Below are positions 8,004 to 30,510 of a stretch of DNA of 64,000 bases, piece by piece. Each line of letters starts with the position of its first letter. Within the stretch, counting starts at the first letter, position 1. Origin of the DNA: an uncultured Bacteroides sp. (GTDB taxonomy: Bacteria > Bacteroidota > Bacteroidia > Bacteroidales > Bacteroidaceae); NCBI GenBank assembly GCA_949296855.1, contig CASFRN010000164.1, forward strand, positions 8,127 through 72,126, written 5' to 3'. Position numbers and translations under genes: made by a program. The notes beneath the pieces are model-generated. The model worked only from the letters and a program-made list of their open reading frames with translations. It had not been told where the DNA came from and did no database searches.

Positions 8004-8008
8004 AGATT

Positions 8009-10810: not shown

Positions 10811-11224
10811 ATGAAAGAATTATATTTCCAGCCGATAGCGGGCAAAGCAGAAGAAATCATTGATGCCATCCTCCGGACAAAGGAGGTGGCATCGTGCACC
10901 AAGGAATTGTACGCCATTCATTTGGTGTGCGAAGAACTGGTGGTGAACGTTGTGAGCTATGCCTATTCTGATGAGGCGGAAGGTTATCTGAAGGTGCAGG
11001 TAGAAAAAGAAGACGGATGCATTACATTGCGCTTTATAGACGGAGGCGTTGCGTTCAATCCGTTGGAAAGAGAGATGCCGGATGTTTCCCTTCCTCTGGA
11101 AGAACGTCAGATTGGGGGGCTTGGAATATTCCTTACCGTTCAGATGATGGATGAAGTATTGTATGAACGGGTGGATGACGAGAATGTATTAACGATTAAA
11201 AAACGTATTGGCAATGAAGAATAA
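10811..11224 (+). CDS. GHKL-type anti-sigma regulatory factor / serine kinase (RsbW/SpoIIAB-like)
   Basis: 137 aa. N-box-like ELVVNVVSYAY and G-box GGLGIFL. Lies immediately downstream of a STAS gene. Confidence 0.8.
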   Translation: MKELYFQPIAGKAEEIIDAILRTKEVASCTKELYAIHLVCEELVVNVVSYAYSDEAEGYLKVQVEKEDGCITLRFIDGGVAFNPLEREMPDVSLPLEERQIGGLGIFLTVQMMDEVLYERVDDENVLTIKKRIGNEE

Positions 11225-11771: not shown

Positions 11772-11868
11772 AACATCGTTCGTAAGTAGATTTGAAAAAA
11801 TGCCAGTCGGATGCTGGCAAGAATGCATACGGCTTCATCGGCTGACGGAGCTATATGTATTGCCCGAT

Positions 11869-11909
11869 GGAACTGGCTTCATCAGCCAACGGAGCCAGTT
11901 CCGTTTTTT
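11869..11909 (+). terminator. Rho-independent terminator closing the 4950-11771 operon
   Basis: A perfect 10-bp stem, GGAACTGGCT (11869-11878) pairing with AGCCAGTTCC (11893-11902), followed by a T-run at 11904-11909. Confidence 0.75.
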
Positions 11910-11926
11910 ACATTAAACAATACAGG

Positions 11927-13483: not shown

Positions 13484-13490
13484 TTGGACT

Positions 13491-16400
13491 ATGATGAAGC
13501 GGTATTTTTTATGTTTGGTTATCATCTTGCTTGCCGGTGTCGGACAAATGATGGCAAAAGACGGACTTCCTTTCTTTGTCAACTATGTACCTGAGGTTTA
13601 CCATGCGCATAACCGTAATTTTGATATCGTGAGCGATGATAACGGACGGGTGTATGTAGCCAATTTCGAAGGTGTTTTGTATTATGACGGAACGGAGTGG
13701 CATACGATTCATGCTCCGGGCATCTTCCGGATTACCAAATTATTTAAGGACAGCAACGGGCGGATTTGGGTTGGAGGATATAATTTGTTCGGATATTTGG
13801 TTGCCGGCGGGAACGGAGAACTGGAGTTGCGGCTGGTGTTTTCTAAAAACAATAAAGGCTTTTTGGGCGAAGTGACGGATGTCGAAGAGAAGGAGGGGAA
13901 GATTTGTGTCACCACTTCGCTGGGAGATGCGGATATTCAGGATGACTCGATGGATGGTTTTATCGTAAGCCAGGACAAATCTGATGATGTCCGGTATTAT
14001 AAAGAGGCAGTGGTAAATAAGCGGCTGGCGTTGTCTGATGGTTCTGTTCTGTTGGCTACGGCTGGAAGCGGTTTTGTGATGTTGGATAAAGAGGGGAATG
14101 AAGTGTATGCGTTAACGGAGCAAAATGGTTTGTGTAATAATAACGTAAATAGTCTTTATGCCGATTCGTTAGGTTATGTTTGGGGAGCTACCGATAATGG
14201 AATCTTTTTGGTGAATATACGTACGGCATACACTTATTTCCGTTCGAATGAAGGCTTGTCGGGTGAAGTGCAATCTATTTGCCATACTGCTCATGGGCTT
14301 TATGTAGGCACTTTGCAAGGCCTGTTCTATAAAGAAGGGGATGTTTTCGAAGCGGTTGGAGCGATTCAGTATGCTTGTTGGCAACTGCTGCAAGATGCGT
14401 CCGGGAATGTTTATGCTTCTACGGCTGGCGGGCTGTATATAGTACGTGGCAGGCAAGTGCAACAAATAACAGATAGCCACACGCTTTCTGCATACGTTTG
14501 CGGAGACGGGGTGTATTATACAGGTGAAACGGACGGCGTTTATCAAATCCGGCATGGTGAAAGGAGACAGATGAATATCATCGAGAAAGCGACCTGTTTT
14601 TATATGGATGCTGATAATACTTTATGGGTAAGGAATATCTACGGGCAGGTGTTCCGTTGCGAAGGGGATTATTCCGGTTATGTTATTCTTGCTCCGGAGA
14701 ATGCAAAAGGAGAGAAGGACAGTTTTAACAATACGCTTTTCGTTCAAGACGGAATCATTTTTGTGTTAAGCCATGTAGGATTGTTCAAATGGAATCATGC
14801 AGAAGGTAAATTGGTAGAGGTTGCCGACCGTTCTTCGTGGGCATCGGATATCCGATACCCTCGGTTTGTGTATCCAGAGATGAACCAACGCGTATGGGGA
14901 ACTGATAATGAGGGGAAGAGCCTGCATATATACACCCATAAGCAAGGAGTGGAGGAAACGAATGCTCTTTTGCGCCCGGTACATGATTTGACGATAGGGA
15001 CAATGGAGGTAAAAGGTGACGATGTGTGGCTTGGAGGAAACTTTGGCTTGATTCATTGGGATGCCGCAATGAAGGAGCCGGATTATGCGGAGGAAGCGCA
15101 TGTATATATCCGGCGTATTGTTATTGACAATGATTCGGTTGTATGGGGCGGATTTGATAAAGACGGCAGGTTAGAGGCTTTGCTTCCTTTTAAAGGGTTG
15201 ACATTCGAAAGTGGTATACGCGATATTAGAATATCTTTCTCAACCGATTTGTTCTCTGTTCTTGGAGCGACGGAATACCGTTATCGGCTGAATGCGGGTG
15301 ATGAATGGTCAGATTGGAGTACAGAGACTTCAGCGCGTTTTGCCAATCCGCGTTCGGGGCGTTACGTTTTTCAGATTATGGCACGCGACAGGTACGGGCG
15401 GGCGACGGAAGCGTTAAGCTTGCCTCTTACGGTGCGCTATCCTGTTTATATGCGGTGGTATAGTATTCTGTTATATGTTATTGTGCTTTCATTCGGTGTC
15501 TGGCTGCTGGTAAGATGGCGTATGCATCGTCTGTTAAAAGAGAAAATGCGCCTGGAAAATATCGTAGAAGAACGGACTTCGCAATTGCGTCGGCAAAAAG
15601 AAGAGATAGAAGAAAAATCAAAGAAGCTGGAGGTGGCTCTTGATGATTTGAGTAAGGCGCAATACCAGCTTATCCGCCAAGAAAAGATGGCTACGGTAGG
15701 TACGTTGACCAAGGGGCTTGTCGACCGTATCTTGAATCCGATGAATTATGTGAATAATTTCTCGCACATGAGCATTGGGCTGGTAAAAGATATTAAAGAC
15801 AATTTGGACGATGACCAGGAGAATATGACATCGGATATTTACGAAGACTCCATCGATGCGCTTGATATGCTGAATACGAATTTAAAGAAGATAGAAGAAC
15901 ATGGATTGAATACGACGCGCATCCTGAAAGCAATGGAGGAAATGCTGAAAGACCGGGGTGTTAATCTGTCGTTGATTGATATAGCGGCGATATGCCGTAA
16001 AAACATCGAGATGTTGCAATCGTATTATGCTAAAGATATAGCCGAGTGTCATATCAAGATAGAATCGCCGGACAAAGATGCAATAGCTGTAGCCGAAGTA
16101 GACGCGGAGCAGTTCAGTAAGGTTGTGATGAGCATGCTGGCGAATAGCATTTACGCGCTTCGCAAGAAGTCCCTGCAAAGGAAATCTTTTGAACCGATGA
16201 TTCGTTTAAGGGTTTCGACAGATGTTGGAGCCAGCATGGTGAAAGTAGGTGTTTATGATAACGGCGTCGGAATAGAGTCATCTATTATCGATAAGGTGTT
16301 CGATCCGTTCTTTACTACGAAAACCACGGCGGAAGCCGTCGGGGTAGGTATGTATCTTAGCCGGGAAATCATATTAAACCATGGCGGGAATATCACTGTC

Positions 16401-16499
16401 CGTTCGGTGAAAGACGAATATGCCGAATTTGTGATTTCTGTTCCTATCCATCATGCGGGGAATGCGAAAAAAGAAGCAGAAAAGGAACTCGATAATTAA
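13491..16499 (+). CDS. Two-component sensor with periplasmic beta-propeller/Y_Y_Y domains, one TM helix and a kinase core lacking the H-box histidine
   Basis: Signal/TM at the N-terminus, about 640 aa of propeller-like repeats, and a TM helix (YSILLYVIVLSFGVWLLV). The DHp-like segment reads QEKMATVGTLTKGLVDRILNPMNYV, with Asp (codon 15723-15725) where the His is expected. The HATPase_c N, G1 and G2 boxes are present (DNGVGI, GVGMYL). Confidence 0.85.
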   Translation: MMKRYFLCLVIILLAGVGQMMAKDGLPFFVNYVPEVYHAHNRNFDIVSDDNGRVYVANFEGVLYYDGTEWHTIHAPGIFRITKLFKDSNGRIWVGGYNLFGYLVAGGNGELELRLVFSKNNKGFLGEVTDVEEKEGKICVTTSLGDADIQDDSMDGFIVSQDKSDDVRYYKEAVVNKRLALSDGSVLLATAGSGFVMLDKEGNEVYALTEQNGLCNNNVNSLYADSLGYVWGATDNGIFLVNIRTAYTYFRSNEGLSGEVQSICHTAHGLYVGTLQGLFYKEGDVFEAVGAIQYACWQLLQDASGNVYASTAGGLYIVRGRQVQQITDSHTLSAYVCGDGVYYTGETDGVYQIRHGERRQMNIIEKATCFYMDADNTLWVRNIYGQVFRCEGDYSGYVILAPENAKGEKDSFNNTLFVQDGIIFVLSHVGLFKWNHAEGKLVEVADRSSWASDIRYPRFVYPEMNQRVWGTDNEGKSLHIYTHKQGVEETNALLRPVHDLTIGTMEVKGDDVWLGGNFGLIHWDAAMKEPDYAEEAHVYIRRIVIDNDSVVWGGFDKDGRLEALLPFKGLTFESGIRDIRISFSTDLFSVLGATEYRYRLNAGDEWSDWSTETSARFANPRSGRYVFQIMARDRYGRATEALSLPLTVRYPVYMRWYSILLYVIVLSFGVWLLVRWRMHRLLKEKMRLENIVEERTSQLRRQKEEIEEKSKKLEVALDDLSKAQYQLIRQEKMATVGTLTKGLVDRILNPMNYVNNFSHMSIGLVKDIKDNLDDDQENMTSDIYEDSIDALDMLNTNLKKIEEHGLNTTRILKAMEEMLKDRGVNLSLIDIAAICRKNIEMLQSYYAKDIAECHIKIESPDKDAIAVAEVDAEQFSKVVMSMLANSIYALRKKSLQRKSFEPMIRLRVSTDVGASMVKVGVYDNGVGIESSIIDKVFDPFFTTKTTAEAVGVGMYLSREIILNHGGNITVRSVKDEYAEFVISVPIHHAGNAKKEAEKELDN

Positions 16500-16532
16500 A
16501 GGAATAAAAAATAAACTCAAAAATCTCAATAT

Positions 16533-17372
16533 ATGGAAACGATAGAACAATTGAAGCGGCAGGTAGAAAGTTTGCAAGAACAATTAAGGCAACAAGAGAA
16601 GATGGCAACGTTGGGATTGCTTACAGCCGGAATCGTGCATGAGATTCGTAATCCGTTGAATTTTGTAATCAATTTCAGTAAGCTTTCCGGTGACTTGATA
16701 AAAGATTTGGGAGAAGACTTGGAGGCAAATGAAGATAATATAGATAATGATGACATGGATGATATTCGTGACATCATGGAAAATTTGAATGAAAACCTTC
16801 AGAAGATAAAGGAACATGGTGACCGGGCTGTTAGTATTATTCAGAATATTCTGCTGTATTCGCGCGGGAAAGAAGATGAGTTTATCCCGACAGATGTATG
16901 TAAGCTGGTAAAAGAATATGTATGGCTTTCTTATCATGCGATGCGTGCTAACCTGAAGAACTTCAATATCACCATTGAGGAGGATTATGAAGCGGCTCTT
17001 CCTTTGCAGCCGGTAGTGCCTCAAGACTTGAGCCGCGCGGTATTGAATGTGATGAACAACGCTTGTTATGCAGTGTGGGAAAAAGCAGGACAGAATATTC
17101 CCGATTACAAACCGACGGTTTCAATAAAAGTAGTTCGCAAGGGCAAGGAACTGCTTATCTCTATTACGGATAACGGCACAGGGATGAGCGATGAAGTAAA
17201 GCAACGTCTGTTCGAAACATTCTTTACCACGAAACCGACCGGACAAGGCACCGGTTTGGGGATGTATATCACTCGCAATATCATCGAAGAAAAACATCAC
17301 GGGCGGATTGAATTCGATTCTGAGGAAGGCAAGTTTACGGCATTTTCACTTATAATACCCATGAAGGAATGA
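16533..17372 (+). CDS. Soluble histidine kinase (HisKA + HATPase_c) with no sensor domain
   Basis: QEKMATLGLLTAGIVHEIRNPLNFV carries the His codon at 16638-16640. Also DNGTGM and GTGLGMY. No TM segment. Confidence 0.9.
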   Translation: METIEQLKRQVESLQEQLRQQEKMATLGLLTAGIVHEIRNPLNFVINFSKLSGDLIKDLGEDLEANEDNIDNDDMDDIRDIMENLNENLQKIKEHGDRAVSIIQNILLYSRGKEDEFIPTDVCKLVKEYVWLSYHAMRANLKNFNITIEEDYEAALPLQPVVPQDLSRAVLNVMNNACYAVWEKAGQNIPDYKPTVSIKVVRKGKELLISITDNGTGMSDEVKQRLFETFFTTKPTGQGTGLGMYITRNIIEEKHHGRIEFDSEEGKFTAFSLIIPMKE

Positions 17373-19777
17373 GAATCAGATTTTTAGTGCTTTTCTGTTT
17401 GTTGTCGTCTGTTCTTTGGGCGCAAGAAGAAAAAGATTTGTTGCAGATATACAGGCAGGCGGAAGAAGAATATGCAATCGGAAGGTTTGATGCTTCCATT
17501 CGTTTGTTGGATCGGAATATGACGAATTTTACCGGAACATTGAAGAGTAGTGCTTGCCGTTTGCTCTCGTTGTGCTGGTTAGGGAAAGACAATCTGCCAG
17601 AAGCAGAGCGGTATGCGTCTTCCCTTTTGAAGGAAGACCCTTATTATAGCACGTCCATCAATGACCCTTTGCGCTTTGTCGACTTGATAGAACGGTTGAA
17701 GCGAGGTGAGGAGGCGACTATTACTACCGCTTCTCAGCAAGCTGAGTCTGTAGAAGAAGCCCCCGTGCCTGTTACGCTGATTACGGAAGAGATGATAAAG
17801 GCATCAGGGGCAAGGACTTTAGCAGACCTGTTGACATTGTACGTGCCAGGTATGTCACTTGTGGAAGGCGATGAACAGAATGTGGCTATGCATGGCGTAT
17901 ATTCTTCATCTCAAGAAAAGATATTGGTGATGTTGAATGGGCATCGGTTGAACAGCCGGACGACCAATTCGGAAGCGTTGGATTACCGGACCAGTTTGGA
18001 TAAAATTAAGCAGATAGAAGTGTTACGCGGTCCGGCTTCTTCGTTGTATGGAAATGTTGCCTTGACGGCAGTAGTGAATATTATCACTAAACAAGGGCGT
18101 GAGGTGGATGGTGTTCAGCTTTCGGCTGGGGTGGGTACAAATCATACATACCGTGCCGATTTCCTGATGGGGAAGAGCGGGCTGGGTATTGATTTCTTGG
18201 CTTGGGCGTCTGTATATTCTTCGCAGGGAGAGAAGCGGGATGTGGGCATTGAAGATGAAGGGTTTTATGGAAAGATACTTCGCCCTGGAAGTATATATAT
18301 TGACGGTTATAATCATCAGCCGGCTTATGATATAGGTTTTATCGCGAAATGGAATGAGTTTAAGTTTATGTTTAATACGCAGTATGCCAAGGAAGTGCCT
18401 TCATATAATACGGTGCTTTTCCAGGGGTTATATTCTTACGACCGTTACCGTGCGATGAACGGGTCTACTCCAGGACACGCGCGGCAGGCTACTCGTTTAG
18501 ATTTGTCGTATGAAAAAAAATGGGGTGAAAAATGGTTTGGAAAGATTGATGCGTATGTAGATTTGGAGACTGTTTCAAATTATGATGTCGGTGGTGACAG
18601 TATCTTACTGGAAGACCGGGAGGATATTCCAATTCGGGAGGATGAAGTGTTGGATGGCGTTGATAAGAGCAATATGCGTACGCGAGGGGTTTATCAGGTT
18701 CAGTTATGGCGGGATTATACTTATGGAGTGGTTGCCCAAAGTGTCTATGATATCCAGCGTGATAAATGGAGCGGAAGTTGGCTGTTGGGAGCACAGGTTG
18801 AAAGTTATACGTTGAAAGATTGCAGTATGTCCGTAGGAGATAACTTTAGCCGGATATTGGTGACTTATTCCAGTCGGAATCGGTTTCTGTTGTTGAACAG
18901 TGAATTTAATTTATCGGCTTTCAGTCAATTGAAGGCGAATATAGGCCGGCATTTTATCTTCAACGGTGGCGTGCGGTATGATTATAAGCATCGCTATAAT
19001 GGGAAAAAGTTGAATGCGTTTTCTCCCCGTCTTTCTTTTATTTACCAGTTCAATCCTAAAATGGGTTTGAAGTTCGGTTATTCTCATTCGTTTGTGGATG
19101 CGCCTTATTTGTATCGCGGGTCCAATACATCGACTTATCCGGGTGGAAATAATTTGGAACCGGAGCAGTTGGATGCAGTTCAGTTGACTTTCAATCATTC
19201 TATACCTTCTTGTAATTTGAAGTATGAGGCGAATGTTTATTATAATCGTTTGTCAGATTTGATTTATTTGGATACTTCTGTTCCGACCTATTACAATTCC
19301 GGTGGTGTGGATGTTATGGGTGTCGAAGGAGTCGTGTCTTATGCGGATGCCCGTTCGCTGGGTTATTTGAATGTATCCTATCAATGGTTGCTGGATAACG
19401 TTAATTATGCATCTACAGGTTCTTACATTAATAATGTCCCTAAGTTCAGGTTAGGGGGAATGTACCGTTATCAATTTTTGAAAACTCCTAAGGCAGGAGA
19501 TGCGTATGTCAGGGTCAATGCCATCGTTTTATCTAAGCAAATATCTCCTATACAGAGGGCTTTCGTTGGAGATAAGGCTATCAATGATCCTGATTATGAA
19601 TTGAGTCCTCGTGCTGTTTTTAATCTTGGCATGGATTATGTTTACAAGCGGGTCGGGATTTCTGCAAATGTTTATAATGTGTTAAACTCAAATTATTATC
19701 AAGGCGGGCTTCGTAAGGCATTTCCTTTGCCCCAGCAGTCAATAAGTTTTTTGGTGAAGCTATCCTATAAGTTTTGA
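17369..19777 (+). CDS. TonB-dependent receptor with an N-terminal helical (TPR-like) extension of about 110 aa
   Basis: Signal peptide MRIRFLVLFCLLSSVLWAQ. Plug motifs APVPVTLIT, LADLL and IEVLRGPASSLYG. C-terminal SYKF. The ATG overlaps the kinase stop as ATGA. Confidence 0.85.
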   Translation: MRIRFLVLFCLLSSVLWAQEEKDLLQIYRQAEEEYAIGRFDASIRLLDRNMTNFTGTLKSSACRLLSLCWLGKDNLPEAERYASSLLKEDPYYSTSINDPLRFVDLIERLKRGEEATITTASQQAESVEEAPVPVTLITEEMIKASGARTLADLLTLYVPGMSLVEGDEQNVAMHGVYSSSQEKILVMLNGHRLNSRTTNSEALDYRTSLDKIKQIEVLRGPASSLYGNVALTAVVNIITKQGREVDGVQLSAGVGTNHTYRADFLMGKSGLGIDFLAWASVYSSQGEKRDVGIEDEGFYGKILRPGSIYIDGYNHQPAYDIGFIAKWNEFKFMFNTQYAKEVPSYNTVLFQGLYSYDRYRAMNGSTPGHARQATRLDLSYEKKWGEKWFGKIDAYVDLETVSNYDVGGDSILLEDREDIPIREDEVLDGVDKSNMRTRGVYQVQLWRDYTYGVVAQSVYDIQRDKWSGSWLLGAQVESYTLKDCSMSVGDNFSRILVTYSSRNRFLLLNSEFNLSAFSQLKANIGRHFIFNGGVRYDYKHRYNGKKLNAFSPRLSFIYQFNPKMGLKFGYSHSFVDAPYLYRGSNTSTYPGGNNLEPEQLDAVQLTFNHSIPSCNLKYEANVYYNRLSDLIYLDTSVPTYYNSGGVDVMGVEGVVSYADARSLGYLNVSYQWLLDNVNYASTGSYINNVPKFRLGGMYRYQFLKTPKAGDAYVRVNAIVLSKQISPIQRAFVGDKAINDPDYELSPRAVFNLGMDYVYKRVGISANVYNVLNSNYYQGGLRKAFPLPQQSISFLVKLSYKF

Positions 19778-19802
19778 TGTTAATTAGAAATTGAAAAATA
19801 CG

Positions 19803-22800
19803 ATGAACAGAATACGGTTGAATGCGATTCAACAGAAATTTTGGATGGATAACTTGTTGAAATATCCGTCTATTGAATACAATGGTACGAATTGTACGTT
19901 TTGGGTGCAAGGGGATTTGGATATTGGGGTGTTAAAAGAAGCCTATAGGTTGATAATGTTGGAATACCCTCCGTTTCATTCGACAATTTTGGTTGAACAG
20001 GGTGTTCCTTATTTTGTTTGGAATGATTCCATAGAGCATTTGCCGTTTCAGTTTATCGAACAGCCGGAAGGCTCTTTGAAAGAAATTGATAGGTTGTTAG
20101 AACAGCTTGTTTATCAACCGTTTGATTTAGATAAGGAATATCCTTGCCGGTTTTATGTGATTCATCATAAGGATGGTTATTTTTTGCTGCATCTGATTCA
20201 TCATATAGCGATAGACGGAGTAAGTATCCAGTCTTTCTTTAGCCGGTTGTCTGCTATTTATAATGATTTGTTGCGTGATGTGTATATGCCTGTAAATCAG
20301 AATAATCAAATGACTCGTTTCAATGCTTGGTTCGATGGCTGTCGTTCACGGCAAAATGAGCAGGATGTGGCATATTGGCAAGATTATGTCCGGCAGGTGT
20401 CTGTAAGTTTGCCGCTTCCTCGTTTGTCATCGGAAAAAGAGACTGAGAGATTGAGAGAACAGGATTTCTATTATGCTTTTGCATTGGGGAAAAAACGTTA
20501 TGAGCAGTATCGTCATTTTTGTAAGGAGTTTCAGACAAGCCCCTTCCGTCTGTTTTCCACTGTATGGGCCTTGACATTATCGAGGGTTATGCGGGTAGAC
20601 GAGTTGCTGTTGGACCATACGGTCAATATGCGCGGCAAAGACTATGCGAACTTGTTCGGCGTGTTTGTAAACAATTTGCCTATAAAATATAAGTTTCAGG
20701 ATGACCGGGCATCTTTTATGGAGCTTGTTGGTTATGCCAATGAAAACCGGCGCAAAGAGCGAGAACACTTGTTTGCATTTTACGGTGATGTTCTAACAAG
20801 GGAGAAAGGGAATCAGGAACAGGTGAACGTATGTATTAATTACCCATTGGATTTTCATGCTTTAGCGTTGGATTTGCACGGGTGTGTTGTGAAAAACTAT
20901 CGTCATGTGAATGTGCTTCCTCCTTTAGACTTGGTTCTGGCGGTAGCAAGTGATGAATCTTTTCGGTGTAATATTCGTTTCAAGCCAGTTATTTCTCGTC
21001 GGTTGGTTCAAGCGTTGGCAGAGACGTTTCAAGAAATCTTGGATCAAGTCTTAGCTTGTCCGGAAATAAAGCTGAAAGATATTCGGTTAGTCTCTAAGGA
21101 TAAGGAAAAGGTTCTTTTAACCCAAGAAGAACGTTCCTTGCGGAATAGGTTGGTTATACCTCAGACTTTCGTTGAACAGTTCCGGCAGACAGTGGTTAAG
21201 TATCCGGATTATAGGGCTGTAGAGTTTGAAGAACACGGTTTTTCTTATGCTGAGTTGGACAGTTTGAGCGAGCGTGTGGCGAAAGCATTGTGCCGGATGG
21301 GGCTGCAAGGCCGGTATATCGGGCTGTCCACGCCTAAGAATCTGTGGATGATTGTCGGTATATTGGGTATATTGAAATCAGGCAATGTGTATGTGCCGGT
21401 AGATGGTGATTATCCGATAGATAGAATCCGCTTTATAATAGACGATTGCCAGCTTTCTGCGGTGTTGCGTACTCAGGATACTTCCGTAGTCTTGGAAGGG
21501 GTTCCTATGTTGTCTATCGAGAGCCTGGTGCAGGAAAAGGATGATAAGAATATGGTTCTGCCCCGGCTTTTGCTTTCAGATAAGGCCTATGTAATCTACA
21601 CTTCTGGAACGACAGGAAAACCGAAAGGCATTCCCATTAGTTATTCTATGTTGGCGCAGACGATAGCGACTTCAGTCAATGTGCTGCACTTGGATGCACA
21701 TTCACGCGAGTTACAGTTTGCCAATATCTGTTTCGATGCGTCTGTGATGGAAATATTTCCAGCGCTTATTGCAGGCGCTACACTGGTCTTGACTCCAGAA
21801 TCGCTCCGTAAAGATCCGGTGGAACTCTTCTCGTTTTTAAGGGAGAAGGACATTACGTCTATGTTTATGCCGCCCGCTTTCTTGGCTGCGTTGCCTCGCC
21901 GGCCTTTGCCTCGGCTTCATACTATTTTTGTAGGTGGAGATTCTTGTACACAAGAAGTAATAGATTATTGGAGCAAAGACCGCCTTTTCGTCAATGTCTA
22001 CGGGCCGACGGAAAATTGTGTAGACGTAACTCATGCGATATTTCATCCTGGTACATATTTGAACGATATAGGTGTGAGTGTACCTGGCTGTACTTGTTAT
22101 GTATTGGACAAATATTTACATTTGATGCCCGACAATACAGTCGGCGAACTTTATATAGGAGGAAGCAAGCTCACGGAAGGTTATTTGAACCGGCCGGAGT
22201 TGAACGCTGAAAAATTTGTGCTTAACCCTTTTGTCGCTGAAGAAGATAAACGGAGAGGCTTGAATACGCGCCTGTATCAGACGGGAGATTTGGTTATGCG
22301 CCGTCCTGACGGACATCTGATTTTTATGGGGCGTTCGGATTTTCAGGTAAAGCTGAACGGCTACCGGATTGAGTTGGGTGATATAGAGTCTAAAATACTC
22401 GAATTTGGCGGTATGGTAAAGAACGCTGTGGTTACGTTGAACGGGCAAGGAGGAGGAAAACACTTGGTCGCTTATGTGCAGACAGATTCAGTGTCTGCTT
22501 TCCCGTTAGATGGCTTGAAGGCTTATTTGAAATTCCGTATGCCGGCATATATGATACCTGCAGTTATAATCCCGTTGCAGGAGTTTCCTTATAATACAAG
22601 CGGGAAAATCGACCGTAAGCGTTTGCCGGATCCGTCTGTTTATGTGGAAGTACGTGAGGTTGATCGGCCTGTTACGGAATGTGAACGTAAGTTGGCTGTG
22701 TTGTGGAGCGGGTTGTTGCCGTCCGTACAGGCTGTCGGTCGTGACGATAGTTTTATCGCTTTAGGCGGTGACTCTATGTCGGTTATCCGTTTGTCTTTTA

Positions 22801-25800
22801 TGATACATGAGCAGTTTGGCTTCCCGATAAAGGCATTTGATATTTATCAGCATATTACGCTGAAGGAGTTGGCAGCTTTTATCGATGCTTATTTACATTC
22901 GGATTTAGGAGAACAAGAAGAGGCGGCTGATTCTGTTGTTTCGGAAGTGGTTCCTTTGACACCGGAACAGTTCAGTTTGTGGCTGGAGTGTATGAAGTCG
23001 GATGAATTGAAGGATGCTTATAATTTACCTTGTTTGTTTGAGTGTCCGTCTGTTTTGCAGCCGGCTGTGTTTGAACAGGCTTTCAACCGTTTGATAAAAG
23101 TGCAGGATAGTTTCCGGATGTGTTTCCCAGCAGATGATAATGGCAATCCTTATATACAGGTGAAAGAATATGCTCCGATGCGGATAGAAATATGCGATGT
23201 CGCGGATGATGAATTGGCGGGATGTTTGAATAGGGATATGCAAGTTTCATTTGATTTGGCGCATGGGCCGTTGTTCCATTGTAGGCTTTATCGCATATCG
23301 GGGAAGAGATATGTTTGTTCCTTGGTGATGCATCATTTGATTTCAGACGGTTGGTCGGCACAGTTGATTCAGTCCGTTCTGGTAAAATCCGTATCAGGTA
23401 TGACGGTTGATTGGGAAGGGCTGTCGGGAAGCTATGTGGAATATGCGTTATTGGCAGACCGTTTTGTGGATACCTCGGCTTATGCTCGCCGTGTGCAGTT
23501 TTGGAAAGGATATTTGCAAGGTGCATCAGAATTGAAATTGCCCAATCTTAAGTCGGAGCGGGAAATCGGGCTTGCCGGAGGTGTGTATACCTGTCTTCTT
23601 CCTAAGGAGCTTTCCGAAAAGGTTCATGCGTTTTGCCGCCTTTATATGTGTACTCCGTTTGTCTTTTATTATGCTGTTTATCTGATGGTATTGGCGCGTG
23701 TGTATAGGCAGACGGATTTTGTGGCCGGTTTCCCTTACGGAGGGCGTGAACATGGACGTTACAAAAATGTTGTCGGCTATTTTGTCCAGACTTTATGTTT
23801 GCGTTATCGCAAGGCATATCAAGAATTGTCCTTTGCCGGCTATTTAGCTGAGATTAAATCGGAATTGCTTGAGGTTGAGCAGAATGCGGTTTCGTTTGAT
23901 AAGATAATGGAGGTGGCGCGGACCCATGCGGCGGAAACGGGTTTACGATTGGTTAGGACGATGTTTACATTCGAGAAAAAATCATTGTATCATGATTGTC
24001 TTATGCAAGAAAAGTCTGTCTTTGATATGGTGTTGAGCGTTTTGTCGGACGATGAAGAGAATGTTTGTTGCCGTATAAGGTATAGGCATTCGTGCTTTGC
24101 AGAAGAGGATATGGCCCGTTTCGCTATGATTTACAAATCTGTTATGTGGGCGGTAACCAGCGATGCTGGTAAAGTTTTGTCGGCTTATTCGCTTGCGTCG
24201 GTTGATTATTGTCAGGCGGTAATCAGAGGAAATCTTTTGTCGGATACCTTAGGTTGTCCGCAGCCTTTTTTGCATCGTTTTGCACAGGCTGTTCGGGATT
24301 TTCCTGACCGGACTGCTCTTGTGTGTGGCGGTAAAAGCATCACTTATCAAGAATTAGACGAGCAGTCCGGCCAGGTTATGTTGGCGATAAAGTCGGCTGG
24401 CATACAGCCGGATTCCAATATCGTTGTTTCTATGCAGGCATCGATAGAATGTATAGTCGCGATGGTCGGTATACTGAAGGCGGGATGTTGTTACGTGCCT
24501 GTGGCTGTAAATTTGCCGGATGAACGTAAGGCTTTTATTCAAAAGGACGCTGCTTGTGTCATGTCGTTTGATGAAACGGATTATCCGTACGGCCATTTGG
24601 CGGAAATTTCTGAGGGGATGAGAAAGGAATGTTCTTTTTCGGGAAATGCGTATGTTATTTATACGTCGGGGACAACCGGACAACCGAAAGGGGTGCCTGT
24701 TACGCATCTGTCTTTGTCGTATTTGATAGAGGCGGAAATTTCCCGAATGAAATTAACGGAGAAAAGTCGAGGCTTGTTGTTCGCGAGCATCAGCTTCGAT
24801 GCTTCTGTGTTTGAGATTTTTCCTATATTGTCTGTTGGCGCAACGTTGGTGATTGCATTGCCGGAAGAAAGAAAAGACCCTGTATTATTGGCTGCGCTGC
24901 TGGAAAGACAGAAAGTTACTTTTGCTACTATCCCTCCTGCTATTCTGCCTGTCTTGCCGCAAAGGCCGTTTCCGTCGTTGGCGGTTATCGTATTAGGAGG
25001 TGAGACAACGGCATTGTCGGCACTTGAGTTTTGGCGGAAAGGCCGTACCGTGATTAATGCTTACGGCCCTACGGAGAACACGGTAGATACGACAATGTGT
25101 GTGGTGGATGATGATTTCGAATACAATGATATCGGCGTCCCGTTGCCCGGAGTTTCTTGCTATGTGTTAGATGAATATCATAACATTGTACCGGATGGTA
25201 TGGTAGGTGAATTATATATCGGTGGGGTACAGTTGACCCGTGGGTATCTGAACCGCCCTGAATTGAATCAGGAGAAATTCATCGAAAATCCATACGTTAC
25301 GCCGGAAGACAAGGCGATGGGAGTCAATCTCCGGCTGTATAAGAGCGGCGATTTGGTGAGACGGCGTCCTGACGGGCATCTGATATTTATGGGACGTGCG
25401 GACAGTCAGGTGAAGCTGCGCGGATTCCGCATAGAGTTAGCCGAGATAGAAACATTGCTTCAGCAATGCGAGGGAGTACGTAATGCATTGGTGGAGGTGC
25501 GGAAAACGGATACGCAGGAAGAACTGGCTGCATTCGTGCAGTTCGACAAACAGGCTTCGCCGGATGTGTCCGGTTTGCAAGCCGTCTTGCGCGGCAAGTT
25601 GCCTCCTTATATGATTCCTTCCAAATGGGCGGCGGTGGATGAGTTTCCGCTTACGGTAAACGGAAAGATAGACCGTAGGCGGTTGCCCGAACCCGATGTC
25701 GTGGTGAAGCGTGAGGTCGTCGGAGCGGGTACGGAAAACGAGGAAACATTGCTGGCAATGGCTGGGGAAGTTATCGGTTCGGAAGGCATCGGAGTGGAAA

Positions 25801-26657
25801 CCGATTTGCTGGATGAGGCTGGGATGACGTCCATGCAGGTGATGGAGTTTGTCGGGAAAGTGATAACGGAAACAGGTTTGCGCATCACGGTCTCTTCGGT
25901 ATACAAAAACCGTACGATACGTAAGTTGTTGTGTGATACGGAAGGAAGGCCTTACTTTTGGTTCGATGGTTTCGACGGACGGAAGCCGGTATTGGTGTTC
26001 ATAACGGGGTTTCCTGCCGTGTCGCCTTTCTATGATGCGCTGTTGCGCTTCTTTGCGCGTGATTATTCGGTATTTGTATTTGACTCTTATTACGATTTCT
26101 TTGTCGGGAAAGACGCTGTGTCTCTGGAAGTGCTGTTGCATTCGTATGAAGAGGTTCTGACGGAGGTTTTGGGTGATAAGCCTGTAGCGATGCTGACCGG
26201 TTATTGTACCGGTGCGGAATTGGCTATTGTTTTTGCTGCTTATATGCGGAAGAAGCATCCGGAGAAAGCTTTGTATCCTATCTTAAATATGGAAGGGGTT
26301 TACCGGCGCCAGGAAACAGACGAGATACCGGAAACGATTACGGAAGAGCCGTTAAGGGGACGTATTTGTATTACGAACGAACTTTATAAAGGTTTTCCTT
26401 TATTGGAGTATACTGGGCCGATTGTGCATGTGATGGCGGGAAGACCGTCTAAGATGATTTATTGGGAAAAAGGTGAGGAGACCGATGGATTGATTTTGGA
26501 ACAGATGCGTCAGGCATCAGAAGCGAATCATGAGGATTGGCAACGGCATTACCCCAACGCTCCTTACTATGAGTTGGATTGTGACCACTGGACGTTCTTT
26601 GAAGAAAAGAATCTAAGGGTACTCCGTGAGATTATTCGAAAACATTGGAATATATAA
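19803..26657 (+). CDS. Bimodular non-ribosomal peptide synthetase, C-A-T-C-A-T-TE
   Basis: C1 HHIAIDG (about 20200-20220). A1 YTSGTTGKPKG (about 21597-21630). T1 LGGDSMS (about 22761-22781). C2 HHLISDG (about 23330-23350). A2 YTSGTTGQPKG (about 24660-24692). T2 AGMTSM (about 25818-25838). TE GYCTGA (26199-26216) and C-terminal DHW. The ATG at 19803 is preferred over the TTG at 19791. Confidence 0.95.
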   Translation: MNRIRLNAIQQKFWMDNLLKYPSIEYNGTNCTFWVQGDLDIGVLKEAYRLIMLEYPPFHSTILVEQGVPYFVWNDSIEHLPFQFIEQPEGSLKEIDRLLEQLVYQPFDLDKEYPCRFYVIHHKDGYFLLHLIHHIAIDGVSIQSFFSRLSAIYNDLLRDVYMPVNQNNQMTRFNAWFDGCRSRQNEQDVAYWQDYVRQVSVSLPLPRLSSEKETERLREQDFYYAFALGKKRYEQYRHFCKEFQTSPFRLFSTVWALTLSRVMRVDELLLDHTVNMRGKDYANLFGVFVNNLPIKYKFQDDRASFMELVGYANENRRKEREHLFAFYGDVLTREKGNQEQVNVCINYPLDFHALALDLHGCVVKNYRHVNVLPPLDLVLAVASDESFRCNIRFKPVISRRLVQALAETFQEILDQVLACPEIKLKDIRLVSKDKEKVLLTQEERSLRNRLVIPQTFVEQFRQTVVKYPDYRAVEFEEHGFSYAELDSLSERVAKALCRMGLQGRYIGLSTPKNLWMIVGILGILKSGNVYVPVDGDYPIDRIRFIIDDCQLSAVLRTQDTSVVLEGVPMLSIESLVQEKDDKNMVLPRLLLSDKAYVIYTSGTTGKPKGIPISYSMLAQTIATSVNVLHLDAHSRELQFANICFDASVMEIFPALIAGATLVLTPESLRKDPVELFSFLREKDITSMFMPPAFLAALPRRPLPRLHTIFVGGDSCTQEVIDYWSKDRLFVNVYGPTENCVDVTHAIFHPGTYLNDIGVSVPGCTCYVLDKYLHLMPDNTVGELYIGGSKLTEGYLNRPELNAEKFVLNPFVAEEDKRRGLNTRLYQTGDLVMRRPDGHLIFMGRSDFQVKLNGYRIELGDIESKILEFGGMVKNAVVTLNGQGGGKHLVAYVQTDSVSAFPLDGLKAYLKFRMPAYMIPAVIIPLQEFPYNTSGKIDRKRLPDPSVYVEVREVDRPVTECERKLAVLWSGLLPSVQAVGRDDSFIALGGDSMSVIRLSFMIHEQFGFPIKAFDIYQHITLKELAAFIDAYLHSDLGEQEEAADSVVSEVVPLTPEQFSLWLECMKSDELKDAYNLPCLFECPSVLQPAVFEQAFNRLIKVQDSFRMCFPADDNGNPYIQVKEYAPMRIEICDVADDELAGCLNRDMQVSFDLAHGPLFHCRLYRISGKRYVCSLVMHHLISDGWSAQLIQSVLVKSVSGMTVDWEGLSGSYVEYALLADRFVDTSAYARRVQFWKGYLQGASELKLPNLKSEREIGLAGGVYTCLLPKELSEKVHAFCRLYMCTPFVFYYAVYLMVLARVYRQTDFVAGFPYGGREHGRYKNVVGYFVQTLCLRYRKAYQELSFAGYLAEIKSELLEVEQNAVSFDKIMEVARTHAAETGLRLVRTMFTFEKKSLYHDCLMQEKSVFDMVLSVLSDDEENVCCRIRYRHSCFAEEDMARFAMIYKSVMWAVTSDAGKVLSAYSLASVDYCQAVIRGNLLSDTLGCPQPFLHRFAQAVRDFPDRTALVCGGKSITYQELDEQSGQVMLAIKSAGIQPDSNIVVSMQASIECIVAMVGILKAGCCYVPVAVNLPDERKAFIQKDAACVMSFDETDYPYGHLAEISEGMRKECSFSGNAYVIYTSGTTGQPKGVPVTHLSLSYLIEAEISRMKLTEKSRGLLFASISFDASVFEIFPILSVGATLVIALPEERKDPVLLAALLERQKVTFATIPPAILPVLPQRPFPSLAVIVLGGETTALSALEFWRKGRTVINAYGPTENTVDTTMCVVDDDFEYNDIGVPLPGVSCYVLDEYHNIVPDGMVGELYIGGVQLTRGYLNRPELNQEKFIENPYVTPEDKAMGVNLRLYKSGDLVRRRPDGHLIFMGRADSQVKLRGFRIELAEIETLLQQCEGVRNALVEVRKTDTQEELAAFVQFDKQASPDVSGLQAVLRGKLPPYMIPSKWAAVDEFPLTVNGKIDRRRLPEPDVVVKREVVGAGTENEETLLAMAGEVIGSEGIGVETDLLDEAGMTSMQVMEFVGKVITETGLRITVSSVYKNRTIRKLLCDTEGRPYFWFDGFDGRKPVLVFITGFPAVSPFYDALLRFFARDYSVFVFDSYYDFFVGKDAVSLEVLLHSYEEVLTEVLGDKPVAMLTGYCTGAELAIVFAAYMRKKHPEKALYPILNMEGVYRRQETDEIPETITEEPLRGRICITNELYKGFPLLEYTGPIVHVMAGRPSKMIYWEKGEETDGLILEQMRQASEANHEDWQRHYPNAPYYELDCDHWTFFEEKNLRVLREIIRKHWNI

Positions 26658-26674
26658 ATTAAAAAATTAATCTT

Positions 26675-27220
26675 ATGAAGCAAAACGGAACGATAACCGA
26701 TATCCTGACGCGGGTTACTGTCAGGAGATTTACAGACGAGCCGGTGGACAACGAAGCGTTGCGCCTGCTGTTGCAGGCGGCTATGGCTGCGCCCAGTTCG
26801 ATGAACCTGCAGCCGTGGCATTTCATTGTGGTGCGTGACGAAACGGTGAAGCAATGTTTGAAAGACAGCTTGCCATACGCCAAGATGATAAATAAAGGTT
26901 GTACGGGTATTGTGGTGTGTGGCGATATTTCTCTCTATGAACATATCAATAAAGTGGATAAGGAAGACAACACGCTTTATTGGGTGCAGGATTGTTCCGC
27001 CGCTTCCGAGAATCTGCTGTTGGCAGCCCATGCCATCGGTTTGGGAGCCGTGTGGACGGGGATTTATCCGCTGGAAAGCCGTGTGAAGAAGCTACGTGAA
27101 TTGTTGGCGATACCTGACCATATTGTGCCGTTGAACTTGATTTTAATCGGTCATCCGGAGAGTGTTCCTCTTCCAAAAGAGAAGTGGGACGAAAAGAAAT
27201 TGCATTACGATAAATATTAA
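26675..27220 (+). CDS. Nitroreductase-family FMN oxidoreductase
   Basis: 181 aa. RVTVRRFTDEPV, APSSMNLQPW and ENLLLAAHAIGLG are typical of the nitroreductase fold. Confidence 0.85.
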   Translation: MKQNGTITDILTRVTVRRFTDEPVDNEALRLLLQAAMAAPSSMNLQPWHFIVVRDETVKQCLKDSLPYAKMINKGCTGIVVCGDISLYEHINKVDKEDNTLYWVQDCSAASENLLLAAHAIGLGAVWTGIYPLESRVKKLRELLAIPDHIVPLNLILIGHPESVPLPKEKWDEKKLHYDKY

Positions 27221-27298
27221 AATGAATGTCCGCATCTGTCGATAAAGATATAGAATTTTATAGGCGGATTGCGGGCGTTTTTGTTAAAAATGGAGTAT

Positions 27299-27691
27299 AT
27301 GAAATTACATCATGTGGGTTATACCGTTGCCGATATCCGTGTTTCTGCAAAGCGGTTTGCGTTGTTGGGATATCAGCCTGGAGAAGTGCTTTACGATGAA
27401 GGTTTGAGTGTAGAGCTTTGCTATTTGACGAAGGAAGGAAGTGCCGTCATCGAACTGGTGCATCAGTTGCAAGCCGGTTCGCTGGAGGCGGAATTGCTCC
27501 GTGCGGGAGGTGTCATGCCTTATCATTTGGGTTATGAAGCGGAGGCTTTCGATGAGGCTTGTTCGGAATTAGACGCACAAGGGTATAAACGCTTGTTTAA
27601 TCCGGTTCCTGTTGGAGTTTTGGATGGGAAGCTCATTTGCTACTTTCATCATCCGGATATTGGCTACATTGAGTTGATAGAAAAAGCTTAG
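27299..27691 (+). CDS. VOC (glyoxalase / methylmalonyl-CoA-epimerase-like) family protein
   Basis: MKLHHVGYTVADI start and a C-terminal ...IGYIELIE. The track start at 27269 is TTG, and an alternative ATG lies at 27290. Confidence 0.75.
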   Translation: MKLHHVGYTVADIRVSAKRFALLGYQPGEVLYDEGLSVELCYLTKEGSAVIELVHQLQAGSLEAELLRAGGVMPYHLGYEAEAFDEACSELDAQGYKRLFNPVPVGVLDGKLICYFHHPDIGYIELIEKA

Positions 27692-28973: not shown

Positions 28974-28994
28974 AGTGCTGAAGGAGGAAAAATC

Positions 28995-30503: not shown

Positions 30504-30510
30504 TAATTTG

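What the first reader, a model, noticed from the sequence alone, without database searches (positions are those of the whole stretch)
17369..27691. Orphan bimodular NRPS cluster flanked by a TonB-dependent receptor, a nitroreductase and a VOC enzyme
Seen in sequence:
- A single 2,284-aa C-A-T-C-A-T-TE synthetase carries all core motifs.
- An N-terminal condensation domain (HHIAIDG) precedes the first A domain.
- The gene lies 25 nt after a TonB-dependent receptor, which is itself translationally coupled to a histidine kinase.
- It is followed at 17 nt by a nitroreductase-fold gene and then by a VOC-fold gene.
- No PPTase, MbtH-like protein, acyl-ligase, ACP or exporter is present in the window.

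Established knowledge: a leading C domain usually N-acylates the first residue, or accepts an upstream-loaded unit. NRPS genes next to TonB receptors are typical of metallophore loci.

Inference: the product is probably an N-capped dipeptide-derived molecule that is re-imported or sensed through the receptor. It might be modified by the FMN and VOC enzymes. I do not recognise this architecture as a described Bacteroidales product.
Basis: partly seen in the sequence, partly recalled or inferred. Interest (0 to 1): 0.82.

Follow-up and report, generated by a model that had tools for sequence, protein, structure and literature searches.

The report
Swappable peptide-synthetase and receptor cassette
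The two-module peptide synthetase is real, but it is the last part of a conserved gut-Bacteroidales operon (sensor kinases, outer-membrane receptor, synthetase) in which receptor barrel and synthetase are exchanged together between strains, pointing to a strain-specific self-made peptide with its own receptor, a system nobody has characterised.

Summary
A 2,284-aa C-A-T-C-A-T-TE synthetase (19803-26657) lies 25 nt after a TonB-dependent receptor and 17 nt before a nitroreductase and a VOC gene.

Three corrections apply:
- The terminal domain is a very divergent thioesterase with a Cys-Glu-His triad. Pfam does not recognise it; a structure model does.
- The conserved unit is larger than the finding. 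The order membrane β-propeller, His-less kinase, small kinase, receptor, synthetase is kept in about 100 related loci, next to partner-switching regulators.
- The nitroreductase and VOC genes lie in the constant flank and are absent from Prevotella, B. fragilis and L006-type loci.

The key result is within-species replacement. Flanks are 95-99% identical, while the receptor barrel and the whole synthetase share no detectable DNA similarity. One Phocaeicola salanitronis-like background carries four alleles.

The family spans A-T-TE, C-A-T-TE and two- and three-module forms, in B. fragilis, P. distasonis and Prevotella. I found no characterisation in the literature.

Best reading: a cognate, strain-variable peptide and receptor pair feeding a sensor relay. 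Metallophore and toxin/receptor-replacement readings remain open. The product chemistry is unknown.

The parts
4950..6116 (+). Response-regulator receiver fused to a PP2C/SpoIIE phosphatase (RsbU-like); candidate output of the kinases
   Evidence: Pfam Response_reg 1.5e-24 and SpoIIE 2.6e-53. Its ortholog (65-75% identity) lies directly upstream of the beta-propeller gene in L004 and L006 and in many metagenome loci.
8000..8317 (+). STAS-domain protein 1 (anti-sigma-antagonist type)
   Evidence: ORF and sequence. The syntenic 102-aa gene in L023, L025 and L027 is a Pfam STAS/STAS_2 protein.
10490..10801 (+). STAS-domain protein 2
   Evidence: ORF. The syntenic 103-aa STAS gene is present in L001, L003, L005 and L023.
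10811..11224 (+). RsbW-like GHKL kinase (HATPase_c_2), partner-switching component
   Evidence: Pfam HATPase_c_2 5.8e-19. Conserved upstream of the operon at 64-80% identity.
11855..13483 (+). Membrane-anchored coiled-coil and WD40 beta-propeller protein; first gene of the invariant block
   Evidence: One N-terminal transmembrane segment in the sequence. WD40/beta-propeller Pfam hits. Present in every locus with enough upstream DNA.
13491..16499 (+). Large sensor: signal peptide, periplasmic Reg_prop/Y_Y_Y domains, transmembrane segment, DHp-like helix with Asp745 in place of the phospho-His, then an ATPase domain
   Evidence: Pfam hits; sequence. The GL[VI]DRILNP motif is conserved in all orthologs examined, including loci without a synthetase.
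16533..17372 (+). Small soluble histidine kinase (HisKA and HATPase_c, His36 in HEIRNPL), translationally coupled to the receptor
   Evidence: Pfam hits. H-box conserved. 4-nt overlap with the receptor start.
17369..19777 (+). TonB-dependent receptor. Signal peptide; TPR-like N-terminal extension (aa 20-113, nt 17426-17707); TonB-box-like TITTASQQAE (nt 17717); plug; variable barrel
   Evidence: Plug and barrel from Pfam. N-terminal extension model pLDDT 84 with TPR fold matches. The N-terminal ~150 aa are 96-100% identical between alleles whose barrels are only ~30-40% identical. Conservation profile.
19803..26657 (+). Bimodular NRPS of 2,284 aa. Approximate domain spans: C1 19803-21120, A1 21165-22667, T1 22689-22883, C2 22941-24200, A2 24279-25667, T2 25725-25920, TE 25905-26654
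   Evidence: Pfam and NCBIfam; motif coordinates. Specificity codes are A1 DAMFFGVVD(K) and A2 DAFTVGAVD(K). Family of 45-64% identical orthologs plus one- and three-module forms.
25905..26657 (+). Divergent thioesterase domain with triad Cys2135 (nt 26205-26207), Glu2164 (26292-26294) and His2262 (26586-26588)
   Evidence: Invariant C, G, E and H columns. Model pLDDT 87.6. Foldseek top hits are PKS/NRPS thioesterases including AB3403 and SulM. Cys fills the nucleophile column in 106 of the 150 profile hits listed, out of 1.84 billion representatives searched.
26675..27220 (+). Nitroreductase-fold FMN enzyme; lies in the constant flank, role uncertain
   Evidence: Pfam 3e-25. Best PDB hits are uncharacterised 'putative nitroreductase' entries at 1e-44; AlbA cyclodipeptide oxidase scores 2.5e-20. 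92% identical in L001, where the synthetase is only 60% identical. Lies outside the swapped block.
27269..27691 (+). VOC/glyoxalase-fold protein; lies in the constant flank, role uncertain
   Evidence: Glyoxalase_4 3.7e-14. Best PDB hits are glyoxalase I at 1e-13. Present only in the Bacteroides, Phocaeicola and Parabacteroides-type subset.

Best explanation
Synthetase and receptor are a matched pair: the synthetase makes a short peptide that varies between strains, and the receptor barrel encoded just upstream recognises or imports it.

Proposed steps in the window:
1. A1 and A2 load two amino acids whose identity is not resolved.
2. C1 probably adds a cap from a donor supplied in trans.
3. 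C2 forms the peptide bond.
4. The Cys-Glu-His thioesterase takes the chain as a thioester and releases it. The release chemistry is unknown.

Proposed sensing: receptor occupancy is reported through the constant N-terminal part of the receptor (TPR-like extension, TonB box, plug). It passes to the inner-membrane beta-propeller protein and the His-less sensor, which works with the small kinase. The kinase controls the receiver-PP2C phosphatase and the STAS/RsbW-like partner switch.

Shown: gene order, domain content, catalytic residues, and co-replacement of barrel and synthetase. Inferred: the ligand-receptor pairing, the signalling route and the cap.
For: 1. Invariant order. Beta-propeller, His-less sensor, small kinase, receptor and synthetase keep the same order in 20 loci found through the synthetase. 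In 64 of 67 metagenome loci found through the receptor's N-terminal extension, a synthetase-type gene starts within 400 nt of the receptor.

2. Within-species replacement.
- L023 vs L025: 98.4% identity up to receptor nt ~725 and 98.8% from the nitroreductase start, with no similarity between.
- L027 and L035 add two more alleles on the same background.
- L046 vs L045: a one-module and a two-module allele, with a 95%-identical left flank and 82%-identical DNA downstream of the synthetase.
- L021 and L022 vs L001: 92-94% identity downstream of the swap. In L021, which retains it, the receptor 3' half is ~70% identical. Module 1 is ~53% identical at protein level.

3. Divergence ranking. Receptor and synthetase are always the most divergent genes. 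Against L001 they are 68% and 60% identical, versus 83-92% for the kinases and nitroreductase.

4. Constant signalling parts. The receptor's first ~150 aa are 96-100% identical between alleles, while the barrel is ~30-40%. The sensors lie in the 98%-identical flank, so they are unlikely to bind such different products directly.

5. The extension is a folded TPR-like domain that precedes a TonB-box-like motif.

6. A receiver-PP2C, two STAS proteins and an RsbW-like kinase travel with the operon in two different arrangements.

7. Tight same-strand spacing from 11855 to 27691, with gaps of -4 to 48 nt.
Against: - No metabolite, transcript or binding data exist.
- No exporter or PPTase is linked to the locus.
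- A-domain codes match nothing I could verify, and the C1 subtype is unresolved.
- Versions without a synthetase exist: L029, L030, L040 and L049. The sensor and receptor can therefore work without a self-made ligand.
- Co-replacement could partly reflect physical adjacency.
- Most family members are A-T-TE enzymes with no C domain, so capping is not general.
- A His-less kinase, a TPR-type extension and a partner switch have no tested precedent as a relay.
Confidence: 0.45

Rival explanations
1. Metallophore locus. The peptide chelates iron or another metal, the receptor takes up the loaded form, and the kinases only regulate expression. Receptor and synthetase would co-diversify as in the pyoverdine/FpvA locus.
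For: - Synthetase-receptor adjacency and co-diversification are classic for siderophore loci (established knowledge of pyoverdine).
- NCBIfam gives weak matches to siderophore, B12 and heme receptor families, all far below their cut-offs.
- The nitroreductase resembles NfsA/Frp-type flavin reductases.
Against: - No genes for chelating groups: no hydroxylase, no DHB or salicylate pathway, no Cy domains.
- No periplasmic binding protein or ABC importer is linked.
- No E. coli-type Fur box and no riboswitch.
- The most common form is a single A-T-TE with a hydrophobic-type code, an unlikely chelator.
- To my knowledge, siderophore biosynthesis is not known in gut Bacteroidales.
Confidence: 0.2
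2. Antagonism with receptor replacement. The peptide is an antibacterial that enters or targets competitors through this receptor family, and producers carry a resistant receptor allele acquired together with the synthetase. This follows the known Bacteroides BSAP toxin plus resistant-ortholog pattern.
For: - Toxin gene and divergent receptor ortholog exchanged as one block is the pattern described for BSAP-1 and BSAP-2 (my knowledge, not tested here).
- Receptor-only loci without a synthetase exist.
Against: - At least four alleles occur in one species, each with its own synthetase. This fits lock-and-key pairs better than a sensitive/resistant dichotomy.
- The operon is embedded in sensor kinases.
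- The receptor's N-terminal signalling-type part is conserved.
- B. fragilis appears monomorphic: one 90%-identity cluster with 1,614 members.
Confidence: 0.12
3. The receptor imports an exogenous substrate, such as an acid, amine or peptide, that the synthetase then modifies. The kinases sense that substrate. Barrel and synthetase would co-vary because both must fit the substrate.
For: - The TBDR plus Reg_prop/Y_Y_Y sensor logic resembles polysaccharide utilisation loci, where imported ligands are sensed in the periplasm (established knowledge; domains).
- C1 needs a donor that is not encoded nearby.
Against: - The sensors are constant while barrel and synthetase change completely, so the sensors do not track the variable ligand.
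- No inner-membrane importer is linked.
- A-T-TE forms have no C domain to accept a donor.
Confidence: 0.08
4. No functional coupling. The synthetase makes a metabolite unrelated to the receptor, and both are simply fast-evolving neighbours in a recombination hot spot.
For: - All evidence is comparative and no functional data exist.
- Outer-membrane receptors commonly diversify under phage pressure (established knowledge).
Against: - Adjacency is kept in 64 of 67 loci across Bacteroides, Phocaeicola, Parabacteroides, Prevotella and high-GC Bacteroidales.
- Swap boundaries fall precisely inside the receptor and at, or just inside (L035), the 3' end of the synthetase.
- Spacing suggests translational coupling.
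Confidence: 0.1

Closest known systems
Pyoverdine locus with FpvA/FpvR/PvdS cell-surface signalling (Pseudomonas)
   Same: - A synthetase sits next to its TonB-dependent receptor.
- Synthetase and receptor co-diversify between strains.
- The receptor has an N-terminal extension before the TonB box that reports occupancy to an inner-membrane partner. For the window this last point is an inference.
   Different: - The extension is TPR-like, not an STN domain.
- No ECF sigma or anti-sigma pair is present. Instead there is a beta-propeller protein, a His-less sensor, a small kinase and a PP2C/STAS/RsbW switch.
- There is no chelator chemistry.
- Products are 1-3 residues long.
AB3403 (A. baumannii C-A-T-TE, PDB 4ZXH) and its quorum-regulated A1S_0112-0119 cluster
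   Same: - A terminal module with a Cys nucleophile in the thioesterase and the acid residue after beta6 (PMC11298585).
- It is a top fold match of the window's thioesterase.
- It has the same architecture as the one-module family members.
   Different: - Fold match only: 13% identity in the Foldseek alignment, and no PDB chain matched the TE domain by sequence.
- From my knowledge, the AB3403 cluster encodes an acyl-CoA ligase, ACP and exporter, none of which are here.
- It has no linked receptor or kinases.
ObiF1 and SulM Cys-thioesterases (beta-lactone and beta-lactam forming)
   Same: Cys nucleophile on an NRPS thioesterase. ObiF1 is also a C-A-T-TE with an N-acyl amino-acid product (PMC6668435, PMC11298585).
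   Different: - Their catalytic Asp follows beta7 ('position II'); here Glu2164 follows beta6.
- The SulM Gln-Cys-Asn motif is absent (the window has Tyr-Cys-Thr).
- The terminal A-domain codes vary and give no sign of a constant beta-hydroxy or beta-amino residue.
Gut-microbiome C-A-T-C-A-T-R synthetases making N-acyl dipeptide aldehydes and pyrazinones (Guo et al. 2017, recalled from memory)
   Same: A two-module synthetase from gut anaerobes with a leading C domain and a small dipeptide-derived product.
   Different: - Termination here is by a Cys-thioesterase, not a reductase.
- Here the synthetase is embedded with a receptor and kinases.
Bacteroides hybrid two-component systems with SusC-type receptors
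   Same: A periplasmic Reg_prop/Y_Y_Y sensor is encoded next to a TonB-dependent receptor.
   Different: - The sensor lacks receiver and AraC domains, and its phospho-His is replaced by Asp.
- The receptor has no CarboxypepD_reg domain, and no SusD gene follows it.

Membership tests
Modular type I NRPS | Condensation, adenylation and carrier domains with HHxxxDG, A-core motifs, a carrier serine and a terminal release domain | tested here: met
   Pfam finds 2 each of C, A and T. Motifs are located. The release domain has a thioesterase fold.
Type I thioesterase domain (Pfam PF00975) | Sequence match above the Pfam gathering score | tested here: not met
   E=0.16, 12.6 bits against a cut-off of 26.4; no PDB sequence hit. 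Membership rests on fold alone, with TM about 0.6 to many thioesterases.
Beta-lactone/beta-lactam-forming Cys-thioesterases (ObiF1, SulM) | Cys nucleophile | tested here: met
   GYCTG, invariant in the family.
Beta-lactone/beta-lactam-forming Cys-thioesterases (ObiF1, SulM) | Catalytic Asp relocated to the loop after beta7 (position II); Gln-Cys-Asn motif for SulM | tested here: not met
   The acid residue (Glu2164; Asp in distant members) directly follows strand E126-129, taken to be beta6. The motif is Tyr-Cys-Thr. Criteria are from PMC11298585.
Starter (lipo-initiation) C domain | Groups with known starter C domains rather than LCL or DCL types | tested here: inconclusive
   Best PDB hits are weak and mixed: TycB 2e-15, SrfA-A starter C 1e-11, CDA-C1 3e-7. 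C2 clearly resembles the LCL type (TycC6 3e-32). The C1 domains form their own clade. No NaPDoS-type reference set was available.
TonB-dependent transducer (FecA/FpvA type) | STN signalling domain before the TonB box, plus an adjacent ECF sigma/anti-sigma pair | tested here: not met
   The N-terminal extension is TPR-like. No sigma or anti-sigma gene appears among the window ORFs scanned.
Siderophore biosynthetic cluster | Genes for chelating moieties, a Fur-type operator, and periplasmic or inner-membrane uptake components | tested here: not met
   None was found in the window. No E. coli-type Fur box. The Bacteroides Fur operator itself could not be tested.
Dipeptide-aldehyde gut NRPS family (C-A-T-C-A-T-R) | Terminal NAD(P)H-dependent reductase domain | tested here: not met
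   No NAD_binding_4 or reductase hit. The C-terminus is an alpha/beta hydrolase.
Partner-switching module (RsbU/RsbV/RsbW type) | PP2C phosphatase, STAS antagonist and GHKL serine kinase encoded together | tested here: met
   SpoIIE/PP2C with a receiver domain, HATPase_c_2 and two STAS proteins. The functional link to the kinases is inferred from synteny only.
Bacteroides hybrid two-component system | Reg_prop/Y_Y_Y sensor, HisKA with His, ATPase, receiver and AraC domains in one protein | tested here: not met
   No receiver or HTH domain; Asp replaces the phospho-His.

The most novel reading that the evidence does not exclude
Gut Bacteroidales, including B. fragilis and P. distasonis, carry a previously unrecognised peptide-based self-recognition circuit. 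In it, a non-ribosomal peptide 'pherotype' is read by a matched TonB-dependent receptor. The receptor's constant TPR-type N-terminal domain signals to a pseudo-kinase/kinase pair and a partner switch. Strains change dialect by swapping the receptor barrel and the synthetase as one cassette.
Probability: 0.3. Interest if true: 0.9.

Novelty: new variant of a known kind. Interest (0 to 1): 0.75.

Why it matters
Gut Bacteroidales are thought to have very few non-ribosomal peptide pathways. To my knowledge they have no known self-made siderophore and no known peptide quorum signal.

This locus would give them a strain-specific small molecule with a dedicated receptor and sensor relay. It occurs in genetically tractable, medically relevant species: B. 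fragilis, P. distasonis, Phocaeicola and Prevotella.

That makes several questions directly testable:
- how Bacteroidales strains recognise kin or compete in the gut;
- whether a TonB-dependent receptor can signal through a non-STN domain to kinases;
- what Cys-thioesterases with a conventional acid position do.

The natural allele series runs from A-T-TE to three modules on identical backgrounds. It is also a ready-made case study of synthetase and receptor co-evolution.

Tried and rejected
- Sequence identification of the C-terminal domain failed (Pfam and PDB). A structure model resolved it.
- A-domain specificity could not be assigned. Codes were extracted against a GrsA segment recalled from memory, and the self-check returned the known DAWTIAAIC. 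Literature string searches for these codes and their cores returned nothing. My recollection that D-x-x-T-I-G-A-V-D-K codes mean Arg could not be verified and is not used.
- Beta-lactone/beta-lactam chemistry was rejected as a family assignment, because the acid residue is at position I.
- I tested whether L035 (A*-T-C-A-T-TE) shows that C1-type domains accept an upstream cap. Its C domain groups with internal C2-type domains, so it does not.
- Nitroreductase and VOC as core tailoring enzymes was rejected on distribution and on their position outside the swapped block.
- Riboswitch and Fur-box searches were negative. The promoter/terminator scan was uninformative.
- Literature searches for a described equivalent found only a passing mention of an unprioritised B. 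fragilis 'NRPS-like 2' cluster family.
- The idea that the small kinase strictly co-occurs with the synthetase was dropped. L040, L049 and L050 keep the kinase without a synthetase.

Full report
**1. Observation**

- The small histidine kinase (16533-17372) overlaps the start of a TonB-dependent receptor (17369-19777) by 4 nt.
- The synthetase ATG at 19803 is 25 nt after the receptor stop.
- A nitroreductase-fold gene follows the synthetase after 17 nt (26675-27220), then a VOC/Glyoxalase_4 gene (27269-27691).

Pfam finds two Condensation, two AMP-binding and two PP-binding domains. The catalytic motifs are present: HHIAIDG, HHLISDG, GGDSM, and both A10 lysines. T2 carries an unusual AGMTSMQ carrier motif.

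No PPTase, MbtH protein, stand-alone ACP or acyl ligase is in the window. An MFS transporter at 3714-4907 is present but is not conserved in the related loci examined.

**2. The terminal domain**

The last ~250 residues do not reach the Pfam Thioesterase threshold (E=0.16) and hit nothing in the PDB by sequence.

An alignment of family members shows invariant G, C, G, E and H columns. An AlphaFold model built on it has pLDDT 87.6. Its best Foldseek matches are PKS/NRPS thioesterases, with TM about 0.6 and 12-18% identity. They include the juvenimicin, tautomycetin, NocB, fengycin and SulM thioesterases and the four-domain enzyme AB3403.

The triad is Cys2135, Glu2164 and His2262. The acid residue follows beta6, the conventional position. 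It is not the post-beta7 position that marks the beta-lactone and beta-lactam-forming ObiF1 and SulM thioesterases.

A profile search of 1.84 billion representative proteins found only 176 relatives. Among the 150 listed, all near-full-length proteins carry the domain at the C-terminus of an NRPS-type protein, and 106 have Cys at the nucleophile position.

**3. The conserved unit is larger than the finding**

Relatives of the synthetase (45-64% identical) come only from metagenome assemblies (ENA, Logan) and carry no source name.

In every context retrieved, the gene order is the same: membrane-anchored WD40 beta-propeller protein, ~1,000-aa Reg_prop/Y_Y_Y sensor, ~279-aa kinase, receptor, synthetase. 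The order holds although the synthetase may have one, two or three modules.

The nitroreductase and VOC genes follow only in the Bacteroides, Phocaeicola and Parabacteroides-type subset.

Upstream there is one of two arrangements:
- a receiver-PP2C phosphatase directly before the propeller gene (L004, L006); or
- as in the window, STAS, RsbW-like and DJ-1 genes, with the PP2C ortholog further upstream at 4950-6116 and a second STAS at 8000-8317.

The large sensor has Asp in place of the phospho-accepting His in every ortholog examined. The small kinase keeps the His.

**4. The receptor**

After the signal peptide comes a ~95-aa extension that is conserved across the family. It models as a five-helix TPR-like domain (pLDDT 84; best fold matches are Fis1 and consensus TPR proteins). 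A TonB-box-like TITTASQQAE motif and the plug follow it.

It is not an STN domain. The TonB box and plug are the most conserved part of the receptor, and the barrel is the least conserved.

**5. Co-replacement of barrel and synthetase**

This is the key result.
- L023 vs L025 (the L025 receptor falls in the same 90%-identity cluster as a Phocaeicola salanitronis protein, WP_277233531.1). DNA identity is 98.4% from the upstream genes to about nt 725 of the receptor, and 98.8% from the nitroreductase start. There is no detectable similarity between those points. The receptor proteins are 96-100% identical over the first 150 aa and ~30-40% identical in the barrel.
- The two synthetases differ completely. 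One is a 1,243-aa C-A-T-TE with code DAWLWAGVC. The other is a 1,340-aa C-A-T-TE with code DALSIGSVD.
- L027 (a two-module, 2,280-aa synthetase) and L035 (a 1,820-aa A*-T-C-A-T-TE) are two more alleles on the same background. Flank identities to L023 are 98.1% and 95.4% for L027, and 98.4% and 99.0% for L035.
- A P. distasonis-type background has a one-module allele and a two-module allele, with a 95%-identical left flank and 82%-identical DNA downstream of the synthetase.
- In the lineage closest to L001, three different module-1 types (~53% identical) sit on a gene that is otherwise 99-100% identical. The adjoining receptor 3' half is also divergent.

Across species, receptor and synthetase are always the most divergent genes of the block.

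**6. Breadth**

A scan of JGI metagenomes with the receptor's N-terminal extension returned 80 loci. Of the 67 loci with at least 1 kb after the receptor, 64 have a synthetase-type gene starting within 400 nt.

| Form | Loci |
|---|---|
| A-T-TE (~810 aa) | 48 |
| C-A-T-TE | 7 |
| Two-module | 3 |
| 1,820-aa form | 1 |
| Cut by contig end | 5 |

All complete forms inspected have a Cys thioesterase.

Exact look-ups place:
- the 809-aa form in Bacteroides fragilis (a cluster of 1,614 sequences; the queried sequence is seen on 708 contigs);
- a 1,241-aa form in Parabacteroides distasonis;
- a 1,251-aa form in an uncultured Phocaeicola.

The genome scan adds Bacteroides gallinaceum, Parabacteroides sp. 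An277, several Prevotella isolates and MAGs, and others.

Versions without a synthetase also exist: L029, L030, L040 and L049.

**7. What it most likely does**

Matched replacement of barrel and synthetase is best explained if the barrel recognises the synthetase product.

The beta-propeller protein and both kinases stay ~98% identical between alleles that must make very different molecules. The sensors are therefore unlikely to bind the product directly. The receptor's constant N-terminal part is the obvious conduit. This works like cell-surface signalling, but it is built from different parts.

The linked receiver-PP2C, STAS and RsbW-like proteins suggest a partner-switching output.

All of this is inference from comparative genomics. 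No step has been tested.

Product chemistry is unresolved.
- The codes DAMFFGVVD(K) and DAFTVGAVD(K) could not be matched to any verified specificity.
- C1 is catalytically intact but belongs to a family-specific clade of unassigned subtype.
- A cap is plausible. L035 carries an in-cis loading module that lacks Asp235. But capping is not general, because most family members have no C domain.

**8. Rivals**

- A metallophore reading fits the synthetase-receptor logic and the diversification. It lacks any chelator, Fur or uptake genes.
- A toxin-plus-resistant-receptor reading (the Bacteroides BSAP pattern, from my knowledge) fits block replacement and receptor-only loci. It fits four synthetase-bearing alleles, and the kinase context, less well.
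- Substrate import and mere adjacency are less likely (section 5).

**9. Known or new**

Literature searches found no characterisation. One 2026 preprint lists an unprioritised 'NRPS-like 2' cluster family with a thioesterase that is exclusive to B. fragilis.

The nearest analogues are the pyoverdine/FpvA signalling logic and the AB3403-type Cys-thioesterase module. Defining features of both families, and of the ObiF/SulM, siderophore, dipeptide-aldehyde and hybrid two-component families, were tested and not met. I therefore rate it a new variant of known kinds.

**10. Verdict**

The finding's real value is the conserved sensor, receptor and synthetase operon with its swappable cassette. Interest 0.75.

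Noticed in passing
window 13491-16499 (Asp745 codon at 15723): The ~1,000-aa Reg_prop/Y_Y_Y sensor has Asp where the phospho-accepting His should be (GLVDRILNP). This holds in all orthologs examined, including loci with no small kinase and no synthetase. It may be a pseudo-kinase or a serine kinase acting on the STAS proteins.
   Followed up: partly
window 4950-11771: The partner-switching genes (receiver-PP2C, two STAS, RsbW-like) are interleaved on one strand with glycan and glycogen-type enzymes (AGE-family epimerase 6147-8003, isoamylase 8296-10455) and a DJ-1/PfpI protein. This arrangement is conserved in Bacteroides and Phocaeicola-type relatives, which hints that carbon storage could be an output.
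   Followed up: partly
window 28398-38359: A ~10-kb fimbrial block lies between the VOC gene and a caspase/WG-repeat block. It holds DUF3575, DUF3868/OmpA, a RelE-like toxin at 30823-31191, Fimbrillin_C, Mfa2 and FimA/DUF4906 genes. In L001 the caspase/WG-repeat block follows about 0.6 kb after the VOC gene with no fimbrial block between, so this looks like an insertion.
   Followed up: partly
window 38877-45948: A Peptidase_C14 (caspase-like) gene, small unknown ORFs, a WG_beta_rep protein and an AAA_14/DUF4143 ATPase form a block that is syntenic with L001. Its function is unknown.
   Followed up: no
window 25818-25838: The second carrier domain has AGMTSMQ instead of the usual GG[DH]SL around the phosphopantetheine serine. 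Relatives show G[LMVI]TS[IML] at this position.
   Followed up: partly
L035:12382-17841: One allele has an extra N-terminal A-T loading module whose code (GAVVVSAIL) lacks Asp235, which suggests a substrate that is not an alpha-amino acid. Its T-TE end is identical to that of the L023 allele, which indicates recombination inside the synthetase.
   Followed up: partly
L029, L030 (Parabacteroides), L040, L049: Propeller, sensor and receptor cassettes occur without any synthetase. L029 and L030 also lack the small kinase. L040 has a SAM-methyltransferase after the receptor. These may be orphan receivers.
   Followed up: partly
window 62446-62516 and 62567-62637: Two tRNA matches with identical length and score lie 50 nt apart (Rfam RF00005).
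   Followed up: no
window 3714-4907: An MFS transporter sits immediately upstream of the receiver-PP2C gene. It contradicts the 'no exporter' statement, but it is not conserved next to the operon in the other loci examined.
   Followed up: partly
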